Shown: one piece after another, positions 32,460 through 36,811 of the stretch | Layout of the letters: each line of letters begins with the position of its first letter | How positions within the stretch are numbered: position 1 is the first letter of the stretch | DNA from: Dehalococcoidia bacterium | GTDB lineage: Bacteria; Chloroflexota; Dehalococcoidia; UBA2979 | Assembly (NCBI GenBank): GCA_965219085.1 | Contig: OZ244720.1 | Coordinates: 3,241,962 to 3,305,961, forward strand | Direction: 5' to 3' | Length of the DNA: 64,000 bases | Program-made: the position numbers and the translations under genes | Notes under the pieces: model-generated | Told to the model about the DNA's origin: nothing | The model's input: the letters and a program-made list of their open reading frames with translations, nothing else | Databases searched by the model: none

Positions 32460-33132
32460 CGTCGCGCCACCCTAGCAGGGTGCTGAAAAAGGCGCGGCCA
32501 TCTGGCAGGATAGCGAAGGCGGCGGGGGCGTAGCCTGGGAGGCAGCCCCGTGCGAGGCGACGCTGAGCGTCAGACCAACATGTTGCTGGCGGTGACGCCG
32601 GACTCCTTCATCCCGGACGACCACCCGATCCGACGCATCAAGCCGATCGTCGATGCAGCGCTGCAGCGGCTCTCGCCGCTCTTCGGCACGATGTACGCAA
32701 CGAGCGGGCGGCCCTCGATCCCGCCCGAGCACCTGCTCAAGGCGAGCCTGCTGATCGCGCTCTACTCGATCCGCAGCGAGCGCCAGTTCAGCGAGCGGCT
32801 GCGCTACGACCTGCTCTTCAAGTGGTTCTTGGACCTCAACATCTCAGACGCGCCGTTCGACGCCTCGACCTTCTCCAAGAACCGCGAGCGCCTGCTCGCA
32901 GCCGATGTCGCGCGCGCCTTCTTCGCCGAGGTGGTGGCCGAGGCAAAGCGCCGCCGGCTGCTCTCGGCCGAGCACTTCACGGTGGACGGGACGCTGCTCG
33001 AGGCGTGGGCGTCGCTCAAGAGATGGCATGAGGGCCGGTCTCTTCCTCAAGGGGGATACTCGCCCCCGAAACAGCGGCCTCGATGGGCCAGAACGGCTCT
33101 TTGCGGAGCTTTGACGAGGTAGGAGACCGGCC

Positions 33133-34221
33133 GTGCAGCAGGATACCGCAACGACGTGGAGCATTGAGGGCAAGGAAGGGTCAGGGGTCACCATCGGCCT
33201 CGACGTGGGCGACCGCTACACCCACGTCCACGCCCTCGGCGCCGGCGGGGAGGTGGTACGTGAGAGGCGCGTCCGCACCACGACGGCAGCGCTGGGCATG
33301 GTGCTGACCGGCCTCCCCCCATCGCGGGTCGTGATCGAGGCGGGGCCGCGCTCGCCGTGGCTGAGCCGCCTCATGGCGGACCTCGGCCACGAGGTGGTCG
33401 TCGCCAACCCGCGCCAGGTCGCGCTGATCGCCGGCAGCCAGCGCAAGACCGACCGGCTCGACGCCGAGTGGCTGGCGCGGCTGGGGCGCTTCGACCCCCA
33501 GTTGCTCGCCCCGATCCGCCACCGCAGCGAGGCGAGCCAGCACGACCTCGCCGTGGTGCGCGCCCGCGACGCGCTGGTGCGCTCGCGGACGCTGCTCATC
33601 AACCACGTGCGCGGGGCCGTCAAGGCCTGCGGAGCCGCGTTGCCGTCGTGCACGGCCGAGGCGTTCCACCGCAAGACGGCGGACCACATCCCCGACGGGC
33701 TGCGCCCGGCGCTGCTGCCGCTGGTGGAGGCGATCGGCGAGCTGACCGCGCGCATCGCGGCGGCCGGCCGCGAGATCGAGGCGTTGTGCGAGGCTCACTC
33801 CGAGACCGCGGCGCTGCGCCAGGTCACGGGCGTCGGGCCGATCACCGCGCTCACGTTCGTGCTGACGATCGAGGATCCTGGGCGCTTCCCGAAGAACCGC
33901 GAGGTCGGCGCCTACCTCGGGCTCGTGCCGAGGCAGCGCGACTCGGGCGAGCGCACGCCGCAACTCGGCATCGGCAAGAGCGGCGATCCGCACCTGCGGC
34001 GGCTGCTGGTGCAGGCCGTGCACTACATCCTCGGCCCCTTCGGGCCCGACACCGACCTGCGCCGCTGGGGTGAGCGCTACACCGCTACGGGGGCCGGTAA
34101 CGCGAAGAAGCGCGCCGTCGTGGGCGTCGCGAGGCGGCTGGCGGTGCTGCTGCTCGCGCTGTGGAAGACCGGCGAGGTCTACGAGCCGTTGCGCGACGCC
34201 GCGGCGCAGGAGGCCGCGTAG
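33133..34221 (+). CDS. IS110/IS1111 DEDD recombinase (transposase)
   Basis: IGLDVG, VIEAG, KTDRLDA (DEDD), GVGPITA, YLGLVPRQRDSG (catalytic Ser), AVVGVARRLA. Confidence 0.95.
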   Translation: MQQDTATTWSIEGKEGSGVTIGLDVGDRYTHVHALGAGGEVVRERRVRTTTAALGMVLTGLPPSRVVIEAGPRSPWLSRLMADLGHEVVVANPRQVALIAGSQRKTDRLDAEWLARLGRFDPQLLAPIRHRSEASQHDLAVVRARDALVRSRTLLINHVRGAVKACGAALPSCTAEAFHRKTADHIPDGLRPALLPLVEAIGELTARIAAAGREIEALCEAHSETAALRQVTGVGPITALTFVLTIEDPGRFPKNREVGAYLGLVPRQRDSGERTPQLGIGKSGDPHLRRLLVQAVHYILGPFGPDTDLRRWGERYTATGAGNAKKRAVVGVARRLAVLLLALWKTGEVYEPLRDAAAQEAA

Positions 34222-34557
34222 CAAGGCGCGGCGCCGAAGCAACCGACCAGGAGAGCGAGACTGAGACGGACCTGGGAGGAGGCCCAGCAAACCAACCACT
34301 GCACGTGATGCCGGGCAACGGGCGACTGCGAGGCGGTAGCGGTCCAACAAGGACGTTCAAGAGTTGGCAGCGCCCCCTGGAAGCAGGATGTGCCTTCATG
34401 CACCGGGCCCGATACGTGGCCCATCAAAGAGTGCGGATAGAAGCTCGGCACAGGCTCCGTCAGGGGACATCACGAGCGGATCGGCCCCGATGTCGAGGAG
34501 CGCCACGCCCCGAGGAGGAGGCCGCCACGTCGGCCTTGCAGAAAGACCGTCCCTCAT
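34222..34557 (+). ncRNA. Putative seek/bridge RNA of the IS1111-like element (ends approximate)
   Basis: Guide segments GGCGGTAGC and GTTCAAGAG match the two target flanks; ATAGAAG matches the donor junction; all sit in stem-flanked loops. Confidence 0.75.
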
Positions 34558-34714
34558 AGAAGCTACCGCCCGCGCGACGAGCAGGAGCCACCCCTGGGCG
34601 GACGCAACCCGGATGTCGACTTCCGCGGGCGGCGGCGCAGCCGCGATACGCATAGTTCCGGCACGGACCCGGAGGCGCGGCTGTACACGAAGACACCCCC
34701 AGGACGCTAAGGGG

Positions 34715-35938
34715 TCAAGCAGCGAGGTCCTCGTGGGTGTAACGGTGTCCCCAGGCGGTCGTCTCGTCGTAGGGCAAGCGGCGCTTCAGGCAGCCATGTA
34801 GGTAGCCGACGAGACGGTTGCCGAGGGCGCGGAGCGCCTGGTGGTGGAGGTCGCCCGCGGCGCGCCGCCGATCGTAGAACTCGCGGCAGCCGGGGCTGGC
34901 CTGCAGGGAGCACAGCGCCCACTGGTCGACTGCGTCGTAGAGGCGCCGGTTGCGGACGAAGCGGGCTTTCACGGTGTGCTTGCGGCCGGATGCTACCGTC
35001 AGCGGCGACGTGCCGGCGTAGTTCCTGCGGGACTTCGCCGACTCGTAGCGTTCGGGGTCATCCCCGAACTCGCCAAGCACCCGGGCGCCGAGGACCACGC
35101 CGAGACCGGGCAGGGAACGGTAGATACCGGCGTCCGGGTGCTGCTCAAAATGGCTCGCGAGCTCGGCCTCGAGCTCCTTGATCTGACGGTTGATCTCGCC
35201 GATCACCCTCATTGCCGCACTGGTGCTCGCGGCGAATGCCTTGCTCACCGCGGGCGGAGCCTCGAGCTGCGGTGAGCGCAGCGCGTCGCGGACCTCGGCG
35301 GCGCGCCGCTCGATGTTGCGCCGGCGGCCGCCGCGGCGCAGCGCGGAGCGGATCTGGGTGATGCTCAGCCGCGCCGCCTCGCGCGGGCCAGGCGCTGTCG
35401 CCAGCACGCCCACCGCGTCGTCGTGCGCGAGGTCGGGGAAGGCCTCCAGCGCACCCGGAAAGTACTCCCTGAGCGCGTTGCGCAGCCGGTTGGTCTGGCG
35501 GACGCGGTCCCAGATCAACTGCTGGTGGGCGCGGGCGAGGATGCGCACCGCGGCGGCTTCGTCGCTGTCGCCGGCGACCTCCCGGTGGTTGTGCCGGTCG
35601 GTGCGGACGAGGTCGGCGAGCAGCTTCGCGTCGCCGGCGTCGGACTTGGCGCCGCCGACGTGGTGGCGGTCGCGGTAACGCGACGCCGAGCGCGGGTTGA
35701 TGGCGTAGACGTGGTAGCCGGCCGCGAGCAGTGCCGCGACCCAGGGGCCGCGGTCCGTCTCGATGCCGACGATCACCTCACCCGGCCCTGAGGCGTACCC
35801 GGCGACCAGTCCGTGCAGGGCAGTGATGCCCTCCACCCCTTCGGGCAGACGCCGGGCGGCGAGCCGCTCGCCCGCGTCGTTCATGAGATGGACGTCGTGG
35901 TGGTCTTCGGACCAGTCATCGCCCAGGTACAAGGCCAT
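34715..35938 (-). CDS. IS110 DEDD recombinase (transposase)
   Basis: LGDDWS, GIETD, KSDAGDA, SLPGLG, YAGTSPLTVASG, ALRALGNRLV. Confidence 0.95.
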   Translation of the reverse strand: MALYLGDDWSEDHHDVHLMNDAGERLAARRLPEGVEGITALHGLVAGYASGPGEVIVGIETDRGPWVAALLAAGYHVYAINPRSASRYRDRHHVGGAKSDAGDAKLLADLVRTDRHNHREVAGDSDEAAAVRILARAHQQLIWDRVRQTNRLRNALREYFPGALEAFPDLAHDDAVGVLATAPGPREAARLSITQIRSALRRGGRRRNIERRAAEVRDALRSPQLEAPPAVSKAFAASTSAAMRVIGEINRQIKELEAELASHFEQHPDAGIYRSLPGLGVVLGARVLGEFGDDPERYESAKSRRNYAGTSPLTVASGRKHTVKARFVRNRRLYDAVDQWALCSLQASPGCREFYDRRRAAGDLHHQALRALGNRLVGYLHGCLKRRLPYDETTAWGHRYTHEDLAA

Positions 35939-35985
35939 CGTGTTTCAGTTCCTCTCCCGCTTCGCGCTGCTCGGTGCGACCCGGC

Positions 35986-36188
35986 GGGTTGGTTCCTGCG
36001 ACGGCCTAATGGATCAGTGCTCGATGGCACGACACCCCATGAGTGCTGCAGAACAACCCGGAATACCAGCAGGGGCTCGGTCTTCGTGAAGCGGTCCAGA
36101 AGCCGCAGGGATCAGCTGAGAGCTCACCGGCTGGCAGGGTCCAGAACCAGTCTGCCAGAGAACCTCTGGCCGCTGGTCGGGCCCCATT
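35986..36188 (-). ncRNA. Putative bridge RNA with target- and donor-binding loops (ends approximate)
   Basis: Four guide segments (36107-36115, 36082-36088, 36031-36038, 36006-36012) match the target and circle junctions in the IS621 order. Confidence 0.82.
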
Positions 36189-36811
36189 AGGGGTCGGGGC
36201 AGACGGCGAAGCTCAGCTACATGGGCCATCTGCTCACCGAGAACCGTCACGGTCTGGTGCTGGACGTGGAGTTGACCGAGGCGAACGGGTACGCCGAGCG
36301 CGAGGCGGCGGTCACGATGCTGGAGCGCAGCGTGAGCGGCTGCGGGACGCTGGGCGCCGACCGCGGCTACGACACGCGCGGCTTCGTGGCGGCGCTGCGC
36401 GCTCGCGGCGTGACGCCGCACGTGGCGCAGCACGACCGCGGCCGCCGCAGCGCCGTGGATGGGCGCACCACGCGGCATCGCGGCTACAGGCAGAGTCAGA
36501 AGCGGCGCAAGATCGTGGAGCAGGTCTTCGGCTGGATGAAGACCGTGGGCGGCGGGCGCAAGCTGCGCTTCGTGGGCCGCGAGCGCAACCGCTGTTGGCT
36601 GGAGCTCACCGCCGCCGCCTACAACCTCGTGCGCATGGCCACGCTCGAGACCGCCGCGGCGTAGGCGCAGTGCGCCCTCCGCCCCGCCAGGGAGCCCTCA
36701 GAGGCCCCCGGGGGCAGGTCAGGAGGCCACGATCACGAACCCGGAGGCGGCTTGAAGCCGCCTCTCGCCACTCCGAGACCCCGGAAGGCGCTTCTTCAGC
36801 ACCCTGCTAGC

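What the first reader, a model, noticed from the sequence alone, without database searches (positions are those of the whole stretch)
34222..34562. IS1111-type seek/bridge RNA in the 3' end matching a second site in the same IS5 gene
Seen: the reconstructed target is GCTCAAG-AG-CTACCGCC. The 3' non-coding region holds GGCGGTAGC (34332-34340), the exact reverse complement of the right flank 34562-34570. It is followed by an inner hairpin GTCC-aacaa-GGAC and then GTTCAAGAG (34355-34363), an 8/9 match to the left flank 33014-33022 whose one mismatch is a U:G wobble. The loop is closed by GGGCG-CTGC/GCAG-CGCCC. A second domain closed by TGTGCC/GGCACA contains ATAGAAG (34437-34443), matching the donor junction CATAGA-AG. 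The other donor arm is ambiguous (TGCCTTC or CCATC versus TGCCATC). The core reads CT on the strand opposite the transposase. Established: IS1111 elements have sub-terminal IRs and a downstream guide RNA.
Basis: partly seen in the sequence, partly recalled or inferred. Interest (0 to 1): 0.85.

Follow-up and report, generated by a model that had tools for sequence, protein, structure and literature searches.

The report
IS1111-type guide RNA aimed at IS5
A small jumping gene carries, behind its transposase gene, a folded guide RNA whose two short variable stretches spell out the exact spot in another jumping gene where it has landed; the mechanism is already known, and this is a clear new natural example of it.

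Summary
Window 33023-34562 is a 1540-bp IS110-family element of IS1111 type. It has a 14-nt sub-terminal inverted repeat, a 110-nt left end and a 341-nt right end, and it sits at an AG core in an IS5-family transposase gene. Eight uninterrupted copies of the target elsewhere in the genome fix the boundaries.

The right end holds a conserved, structured RNA (about 34300-34478). Its first internal loop carries GGCGGTAGC, complementary to the top strand right of the core, and GTTCAAGAG, which matches the left flank plus core.

The decisive evidence is natural reprogramming. Across the copies in this genome and relatives in other genomes, the scaffold is nearly invariant, yet 16 different guide pairs occur.
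- Guide 1 matches its own right flank by at least 7 nt in 17 of 24 contexts (non-cognate pairings: 7 of 312).
- Guide 2 matches its own left flank by at least 7 nt in 16 of 27 contexts (non-cognate: 4 of 308).

A few contexts mismatch. The two I examined are mosaic copies.

All four guide sets in this genome aim at transposase genes of other resident IS families.

The donor loop is only half supported. Expression was not shown. Verdict: a new member of a known kind (seekRNA/bridge RNA).

The parts
33014..33022 (+). Left target flank GCTCAAG plus core AG (33021-22)
   Evidence: uninterrupted targets. It matches guide 2.
33023..34562 (+). IS1111-type element, 1540 bp counting one copy of the AG core
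   Evidence: 11 near-full copies in the genome; empty sites. DNA contigs of runs X1 and X7 join 33020 to 34561, skipping 1540 nt with 2 ambiguous bases.
33028..33041 (+). Left sub-terminal inverted repeat
   Evidence: pair I23: 14 nt, 93% complementary to 34544-34557. It starts 5 nt inside the end.
33133..34221 (+). Transposase gene, 362 aa
   Evidence: PF01548 and PF02371. NF033542, 238 bits against a cut-off of 140. GLVPRQRDSG motif.
34300..34478 (+). Predicted long form of the guide RNA: an outer stem (34300-34313 with 34464-34478) enclosing both loops
   Evidence: RNAalifold consensus. Pair 6/194 reads CG in 5 sequences, UA in 3 and UG in 1. The ends of the RNA are not mapped.
34320..34375 (+). 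Target-binding stem-loop
   Evidence: Stems are conserved and the inner hairpin has compensatory changes.
34332..34340 (+). Guide 1, pairs with the top strand of core G plus the right flank
   Evidence: a 9-nt exact complement that co-varies in relatives.
34355..34363 (+). Guide 2, identical to the left flank plus core, so it pairs with the bottom strand
   Evidence: 7-nt exact run plus a U:G wobble; co-varies in relatives.
34376..34387 (+). Small linker hairpin CCUG-GAAG-CAGG
   Evidence: helix 5.
34389..34452 (+). Second (putative donor-binding) stem-loop
   Evidence: helices 6-9. Helix 9 (34405-34422) has three pairs with compensatory changes.
34437..34443 (+). ATAGAAG, identical to the last 7 nt of the right end including the core
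   Evidence: It is invariant, as is the right end, even at 52% protein identity. It lies 3 nt from the closing stem, as guide 2 does in the first loop.
34544..34557 (+). Right sub-terminal inverted repeat
   Evidence: pair I23.
34563..34571 (+). Right target flank CTACCGCCC
32472..36810 (+). Host IS5-family element, split into 32472-33022, 34563-34692 and 36189-36810
   Evidence: blastn against an intact copy (L020). DUF772 and DDE_Tnp_1.

Best explanation
Window 33023-34562 is an IS1111-type member of the IS110 family. Its right non-coding end encodes a seekRNA/bridge RNA on the transposase strand.

The RNA folds into an outer stem enclosing two stem-loops. In the first loop, the 5' strand (guide 1, 34332-34340) pairs with the top strand of the target just right of the AG core. 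The 3' strand (guide 2, 34355-34363) pairs with the bottom strand left of and including the core. The DEDD transposase bound to this RNA then recombines the joined ends of the excised element with that site.

Here the site is GCTCAAG-AG-CTACCGCC, in a conserved stretch of an IS5-family transposase gene.

Shown here: the boundaries and target, the IS1111 architecture, the conserved structured scaffold, and co-variation of both guides with the flanks.

Inferred from published work on ISEc11, ISPa11, ISKpn4 and IS621:
- that the region is transcribed, processed and bound by the transposase;
- that recombination goes through a circular form;
- that the second loop reads the donor ends. Only its ATAGAAG arm has support here.
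For: (1) Architecture.
- Pfam PF01548 and PF02371; NCBIfam 'IS110 family RNA-guided transposase', 238 bits.
- A 14-nt sub-terminal inverted repeat with 13 of 14 positions complementary.
- Left end 110 nt, right end 341 nt.
- GLVPRQRDSG motif.

(2) Target.
- 6 exact and 2 one-mismatch uninterrupted sites among 16 hits.
- The AG core is present at both junctions.

(3) Natural reprogramming in the same genome.
- The 11 near-full copies carry 4 guide sets on one scaffold.
- A: GGCGGTAGC / TTCAAGAG at gctcaagAG|ctaccgcc.
- B: CACCCACTT / GGCAGAG at gggcagAG|tgggtgag.
- C: CGAGCTGCT / CCACCAG at cccaccAG|cagctcg.
- D: CAGGCTGCTT / CCGCATAG at ccgcatAG|cagcctg.

(4) With relatives from 7 other genomes there are 32 distinct contexts and 16 guide pairs.
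- Guide 1 against its own right flank: run of at least 7 nt in 17 of 24 contexts; non-cognate 7 of 312.
- Guide 2 against its own left flank: run of at least 7 nt in 16 of 27 contexts; non-cognate 4 of 308.
- One single-base compensation is visible: target AAGTGGGTG with guide CACCCACTT (own genome) against AAGCGGGTG with CACCCGCTT (L047).

(5) Only two short blocks are hypervariable in an otherwise 82-85% identical RNA alignment.

(6) Structure.
- 96% of cells are paired.
- 11 pairs have changes on both sides, against 2.0 +/- 1.2 in shuffles (0 of 500 reach it) and 0-2 in slid controls.
- Conserved U-G pairs (columns 25/63 and 124/160) fit the + strand only.

(7) The order of matches, top strand first, is as published for IS1111-type seekRNAs (PMC11187229, sections read). 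Durrant et al. predict a right-end bridge RNA in 93.0% of IS1111 elements (PMC11208160, passages read).
Against: - No expression evidence. The only RNA run found (X21, metatranscriptome contigs) does not cover 34181-34485.
- No sigma-70-like promoter or intrinsic terminator in 32950-34650, and none across the computed right-end/left-end junction.
- No Rfam family matches the region.
- Some contexts do not match their guides.
  - L009: B guides at the IS5 site.
  - L037: guides of the IS21-targeting set at a different, palindromic site. That genome holds no module with the fitting guides among the 17 parsed loci of its 19 matches.
  - L074: both sides mismatch.
  - L036 and L076: right side only.
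  - L005: right flank is not IS5.
  - The L038 group has 2 mismatches on the right.
- Only L009 and L037 were examined further. Both are mosaics.
- Guide 1 pairs with the core in a register that shifts by 0-2 nt between variants.
- The alignment used was fitted to the model, which favours the structure. Helix 8 never varies.
- Donor loop: the right-donor arm is unresolved.
Confidence: 0.9

Rival explanations
1. The first loop is a true target guide, but the second domain (34389-34452) is a protein-binding scaffold and not a donor-binding loop. In this reading the ends are recognised by the transposase through the sub-terminal inverted repeats.
For: - ATAGAAG and the right end never vary, so there is no co-variation.
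- CCATC (34421-25) changes to ACC, ACA, ACG or GCA in relatives whose left end stays AG-ATGG.
- TGCAC/GTGCG is invariant and pairs with itself (helix 8).
- In ISEc11, the short 82-nt seekRNA with the target matches sufficed for movement, and the authors stress that end recognition may differ in IS1111.
Against: - ATAGAAG sits 3 nt from the closing stem, exactly as guide 2 does in the first loop.
- It equals the right end plus core even in L048, at 52% protein identity.
- The first base of the 5' strand (G, C or U) tracks left-end position 5 (C, G, G) in three lineages. This is weak.
- Durrant et al. report donor-binding bases in multi-loops in many IS1111 orthologues.
Confidence: 0.35
2. The guide segments act at the DNA level: the folded single-stranded transposon end pairs with the target, as in IS200/IS605, and no RNA is involved.
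For: Sequence alone cannot tell RNA from single-stranded DNA. No transcript was seen.
Against: - The transposase belongs to the family for which RNA guidance has been shown experimentally.
- The layout of the guides is the published seekRNA layout.
- The module lies about 90-240 nt from the end, not at it.
Confidence: 0.03
3. The matches are coincidence, or remnants of captured flank sequence, and target choice is made by the protein alone.
For: Some copies sit at sites their guides do not match.
Against: - 0 of 5000 shuffles reproduce the pair of matches.
- 16 guide pairs track their flanks at fixed positions of a conserved scaffold, one as a complement and one as a copy.
- Transposases that are 85-90% identical use unrelated targets.
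Confidence: 0.01

Closest known systems
seekRNAs of IS1111-family elements ISEc11, ISXne4, ISPa11 and ISKpn4 (Siddiquee et al. 2024, PMC11187229; outline and sections 6, 9, 10, 13, 14 read)
   Same: - The guide RNA lies in the 3' non-coding region.
- The ends carry sub-terminal inverted repeats.
- The top-strand match lies 5' of the bottom-strand match, and the two overlap at the insertion point.
- The stems are conserved while the guide bases diverge.
- Natural re-direction between relatives is seen.
- The transposase matches an ISEc11-family transposase at 30.7% identity over residues 63-293 (H60).
   Different: - The host is a Chloroflexota genome (relatives are in Dehalococcoidia and Tepidiformaceae MAGs).
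- The transposase is 362 aa, against the 330-350 aa stated for the family.
- The core is AG.
- The re-direction series is much denser: 16 guide pairs among elements mostly 85-90% identical, against one pair at 72% protein identity.
- Targets are coding sequences of other IS transposases rather than REP, attC or Tn21 inverted repeats.
- No experimental RNA data exist for this element.
IS621 bridge RNA (Durrant et al. 2024, PMC11208160, passages read; PDB 8wt6)
   Same: - Two internal loops.
- Each target guide reads a different DNA strand around a 2-nt core.
- The guides are programmable.
- The transposase has the DEDD plus PF02371 domains.
   Different: - In IS621 the RNA lies in the left end, upstream of tnp, and the guide order is reversed.
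- IS621 lacks long sub-terminal repeats.
- Sequence similarity to our protein covers only residues 227-353 (E 9.7e-07).
- The donor loop here is not a simple two-guide internal loop.
ISPpu9 and expanded IS110 loci (PMC12288879, passages read; bioRxiv 10.64898/2026.08.14.744561, passages read)
   Same: - An invariant AG recombination dinucleotide.
- Tandem duplicated non-coding modules next to the transposase gene, whose units keep the left-donor boundary. This resembles the right-end arrays at L007, L008 and L010.
   Different: Those reports concern IS110-group elements. Here the arrays consist of right-end pieces of an IS1111-type element, each joined after an internal AG.

Membership tests
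IS1111 group of the IS110 family | DEDD (RuvC-like) N-terminal domain plus PF02371 C-terminal domain | tested here: met
   PF01548 E 1e-18 and PF02371 E 1.8e-19. NF033542, 238 bits against a cut-off of 140.
IS1111 group of the IS110 family | Sub-terminal inverted repeats of 7-17 bp | tested here: met
   pair I23: 33028-33041 with 34544-34557, 14 nt, 93% complementary, 5 nt inside each end.
IS1111 group of the IS110 family | The long non-coding region lies downstream of tnp | tested here: met
   110 nt upstream (33023-33132), 341 nt downstream (34222-34562).
IS1111 group of the IS110 family | GL-P----S/TG motif in the C-terminal domain (as stated in PMC11187229, section 6) | tested here: met
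   GLVPRQRDSG.
IS1111 group of the IS110 family | Transposase related across its full length to IS1111-group transposases | tested here: inconclusive
   30.7% identity over residues 63-293 with an 'ISEc11 family' transposase (E 5e-13), and 26-29% over about 83% of the query with enterobacterial plasmid IS110-family genes. IS110-group structures match only residues 227-354. No tree was built.
IS1111 group of the IS110 family | Site- and orientation-specific insertion at a short core, without a long target duplication | tested here: met
seekRNA / bridge RNA | Two short segments that match opposite strands of the target on either side of the core | tested here: met
seekRNA / bridge RNA | Guide segments co-vary with targets among relatives | tested here: met
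   17 of 24 and 16 of 27 cognate contexts reach a run of 7 nt, against 7 of 312 and 4 of 308 non-cognate pairings. The exceptions are listed in the Against line.
seekRNA / bridge RNA | Conserved secondary structure with guides in internal loops | tested here: met
seekRNA / bridge RNA | A second loop complementary to both donor ends | tested here: inconclusive
   ATAGAAG equals the right end. No clear left-end guide was found; CCATC and TCATGC were rejected.
seekRNA / bridge RNA | The RNA is made, binds the transposase and is needed for movement | not testable with these tools
   One search gave no usable RNA coverage.
Rfam families | Match to a curated covariance model | tested here: not met
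   no hit in 34222-34562 at E up to 1.

The most novel reading that the evidence does not exclude
This scaffold may be a specialised 'IS-hunter'. One lineage of IS1111-type elements, seen so far in a handful of Chloroflexota genomes, has repeatedly re-written its two guides to land in conserved motifs of the transposase genes of other co-resident IS families.
- In this genome: IS5, IS1380-like, IS3 and another IS110-family element.
- In a relative: IS21.

In other genomes a further IS110-family element sits inside this element's own guide-RNA gene.

The mosaic copies with wrong guides would then record either exchange of the guide module by gene conversion or insertion directed in trans by a sister copy's RNA. 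Together this would be a layered, RNA-guided parasitism among mobile elements.
Probability: 0.4. Interest if true: 0.55.

Novelty: new member of a known kind. Interest (0 to 1): 0.4.

Why it matters
The mechanism is already established, so the finding does not open a new question. Its value is as a natural data set. A nearly fixed RNA scaffold carries 16 guide pairs with known targets, single-base guide/target compensations, recurrent U:G positions and shifts in core register. Mismatched mosaic copies also occur. All of this bears on the pairing rules of the less-studied IS1111-type guides, and on whether these RNAs act in trans. The choice of other transposase genes as landing sites shows how such elements find harmless, multi-copy targets.

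Tried and rejected
- Whole-NCR fold: no better than shuffles, z +0.22. Only the 185-nt sub-region gives the expected fold.
- Rfam: nothing in the NCR.
- Promoter and terminator scan, and a search for a promoter across the computed right-end/left-end junction at up to 2 mismatches per hexamer: none found.
- RNA evidence: 22 runs were listed. Only one is on record as RNA (share 0.05, contigs only). It does not cover 34181-34485, so it says nothing about expression either way.
- CCATC (34421-25) as the left-end guide: rejected, because that segment varies while the left end does not.
- TCATGC (34396-34401) pairing with GCATGA of the left end: rejected. L048 keeps CATGC although its left end reads GGGATGA, and the bases belong to invariant helix 8.
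- Model R1 in 150 sampled genomes of the same class: 0 of 150 have a match, and only the window's own genome does (stricter filters). This means 'not found in those searched', not 'absent'.
- Trans-mobilisation of L037 by a co-resident element with the fitting guides: no such module among the 17 parsed loci of 19 matches in that genome. The idea is therefore unsupported there.
- Pfam on 10 flank fragments of relatives: 5 gave nothing, partly because my frame choice in GC-rich DNA was crude.
- Literature: searches found no paper describing IS110/IS1111 elements aimed at other IS transposase genes. One search, with six phrases, returned 0 papers. This is not proof that none exists.

Full report
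**What is there.** The window holds an IS5-family element at 32472-36810, identified by blastn against an intact copy and by DUF772 and DDE_Tnp_1 hits. Its transposase gene is interrupted twice.

The first insert, 33023-34562, is the subject of the finding. It encodes a 362-aa protein (33133-34221). This protein carries PF01548 and PF02371 and scores 238 bits on NCBIfam NF033542, 'IS110 family RNA-guided transposase'.

The element has a 14-nt sub-terminal inverted repeat, 33028-33041 with 34544-34557, with 13 of 14 positions complementary, lying 5 nt inside each end. Its left non-coding end is 110 nt and its right end is 341 nt. It also has the GLVPRQRDSG motif.

These are the features that two papers give for the IS1111 group. 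They are PMC11187229, section 6, and PMC11208160, passages.

The protein matches an 'ISEc11 family' transposase on an E. coli plasmid at 30.7% identity over residues 63-293. The solved IS110-group proteins IS621 and ISCro4 match only its C-terminal domain. I built no tree, so group membership by phylogeny remains open.

The target was reconstructed correctly. A 20-nt query joining the two flanks gave 16 hits at up to 4 substitutions. Six exact hits and two one-mismatch hits all lie inside uninterrupted IS5-type genes; the other eight hits have 3-4 mismatches and are unrelated.

An AG dinucleotide stands at both junctions. Metagenome contigs of two runs join 33020 to 34561, skipping 1540 nt with 2 ambiguous bases.

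In 5000 shuffles of the non-coding region, none produced both matches in order within 40 nt.

**The decisive evidence: natural reprogramming.** The genome has 11 near-full copies. Five are about 100% identical to the window copy and six are 85-88% identical.

In an alignment of their right ends, the RNA region is almost invariant except for two short blocks.

Four guide sets occur. Each matches its own flanks once tandem right-end duplications are read through.
- A: GGCGGTAGC / TTCAAGAG at the IS5 site.
- B: CACCCACTT / GGCAGAG at gggcagAG|TGGGTGAG.
- C: CGAGCTGCT / CCACCAG at cccaccAG|CAGCTCG.
- D: CAGGCTGCTT / CCGCATAG at ccgcatAG|CAGCCTG.

The protein search in one genome per species returned 26 loci, in six Dehalococcoidia/Tepidiformaceae MAGs and one Acidobacteriota MAG. 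A covariance-model search of two of those genomes added further modules.

Pooling everything whose first loop could be parsed gives 32 distinct contexts and 16 distinct guide pairs. L048, L049 and L088 were dropped because the pattern did not fit them. Contexts lacking a flank are not counted on that side.
- Guide 1 has an exact complementary run of at least 7 nt with its own right flank in 17 of 24 contexts. Non-cognate pairings reach this in 7 of 312, all between near-identical guides.
- Guide 2 has a run of at least 7 nt with its own left flank in 16 of 27 contexts. Non-cognate pairings reach this in 4 of 308.
- One difference is a single compensated base: AAGTGGGTG with CACCCACTT here, against AAGCGGGTG with CACCCGCTT in L047.

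**Structure.** RNAalifold on ten distinct full RNAs gives the following layout.
- An outer stem, 34300-34313 with 34464-34478.
- The first stem-loop, 34320-34375, with the guides in its internal loop.
- A 4-bp linker hairpin.
- A second, irregular stem-loop, 34389-34452.

On a model-fitted alignment of 17 distinct sequences, 96% of cells pair. Eleven pairs change on both sides, against 2.0 +/- 1.2 in shuffles (0 of 500 reach it) and 0-2 in slid controls. That alignment leans towards the model, and helix 8 never varies. Conserved U-G pairs place the RNA on the transposase strand.

The guide order, top-strand match first, is the one reported for IS1111-type seekRNAs and is reversed relative to the IS110 type.

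**The donor loop.** ATAGAAG (34437-43) equals the last 7 nt of the right end including the core. It lies 3 nt from the closing stem, as guide 2 does in the first loop. It is kept even in L048, at 52% protein identity, whose right end also ends in CATAGAAG. Because neither side varies, this is consistent with donor reading but is not a test of it.

TCATGC belongs to an invariant helix.

The 5' strand (GCCUUCA here) fits AGATGGC in 5 of 7 positions. Its first base tracks left-end position 5 in three lineages (G:C, C:G, U:G). This is a weak hint only. Durrant et al. note that many IS1111 RNAs hold donor-binding bases in multi-loops.

**Results against the reading.** Several contexts do not match their guides.
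- L009 has B guides at the IS5 site.
- L037 has the IS21-site guides at a palindromic site used by another guide set.
- L074 mismatches on both sides.
- L036 and L076 mismatch on the right side, the only side known.
- L005 has a right flank that is not IS5.
- The L038 group has two mismatches on the right.

I examined two of these. L009 is 100% identical to group B over its last 1.2 kb, but only 74-89% identical over its first 300 bp or so. L037 is likewise a patchwork relative to its guide donors. Gene conversion of a resident copy would explain both.

Insertion directed in trans by a sister copy's RNA is possible for L009, since A-type copies share its ends. It has no support for L037, because no fitting guide was found in that genome.

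Expression was not shown. No promoter or terminator was found.

**Targets.** In this genome all four guide sets aim at transposase genes of other IS families.
- A: IS5-family gene, 8 empty sites.
- B: a DDE_Tnp_1_4 (IS1380-like) gene, antisense, 6 empty sites with 1-2 mismatches.
- C: a 407-aa IS110-family gene. Six copies differ from the occupied site by 3 bases on the right. One of these lies in the window at about 35513-35532.
- D: an rve/rve_3 (IS3-like) gene, 10 exact empty sites.

In relatives, one set hits an IS21-like istA gene. Another lies once next to HTH-only reading frames and once in a non-IS gene with Flg_new_2 repeats. Multi-copy, dispensable targets would be favoured by selection in any case, so a dedicated preference for IS genes is plausible but not proven.

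**Comparison and verdict.** This works like the published IS1111-type seekRNA/bridge RNA, and it passes every family feature that sequence analysis can test. Natural re-direction is also in print, for ISEc11 against ISXne4. The finding is therefore a new member of a known kind.

What it adds is the density of the natural guide series and the choice of other IS genes as targets. No paper describing the latter turned up in the searches.

Noticed in passing
window 34686-36190 (- strand): A second, different IS110-family element (407-aa transposase, ORF 34715-35938) sits about 130 bp further along the same IS5 gene. The same pairing of IS5 with this element recurs elsewhere in the genome: the 6 sites lie beside IS5 copies, and two of those IS5 copies still have an empty A target.
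   Followed up: partly
window 35033-35114 (+): Rfam Ms_AS-4 (Actinobacteria sRNA) matches at 63.9 bits against a gathering score of 50. The match is antisense to the 407-aa IS110-family transposase gene.
   Followed up: no
window about 35513-35532 (-): Near-target of guide set C inside the 407-aa IS110-family gene. The left half is identical and there are 3 mismatches on the right. The one occupied C site (L008) lies in a diverged copy that matches the guide perfectly.
   Followed up: partly
G000:C1:2850004-2850740 (L010), 893320-893397 (L008), 1261334-1261394 (L007): Tandem arrays of partial right ends: 5, 2 and 2 right-end termini respectively. Each unit ends in CATAGAAG and is joined after an internal AG. 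One junction lies at GGATAG|AAGC inside the second RNA loop. L010 thereby carries a second complete guide RNA. This resembles the tandem non-coding units with left-donor boundaries described for IS110 loci in bioRxiv 10.64898/2026.08.14.744561 (passages read).
   Followed up: partly
L047 3808-4896 (-); same insert in L028, L036, L041: In other genomes, a different 362-aa IS110-family element (PF01548 and PF02371) is inserted inside this element's second RNA loop, at GGATAG|AAGC. One RNA-guided IS thus sits in the guide-RNA gene of another.
   Followed up: partly
G000:C1:1972909-1973819 and 1859038-1859948: An identical insert of about 910 bp splits the right end of copies L004 and L005 at GCAGAAAG|ACCGTCCC. 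L005 also has a right flank that is not IS5, which suggests a rearrangement between copies. The nature of the insert is unknown.
   Followed up: no
L029, L031-L036, L049 around locus position 2390: In two other genomes the left end of many copies is cut 4 nt inside (..CT|GGCATGAGGG) and abuts the same repeated sequence of at least 300 bp. This probably reflects another element or a recurrent rearrangement at the left end.
   Followed up: no
L048 3588-3820: The Acidobacteriota relative (52% protein identity) carries two tandem copies of the first (target) loop, with longer inner hairpins, before a single second loop.
   Followed up: no
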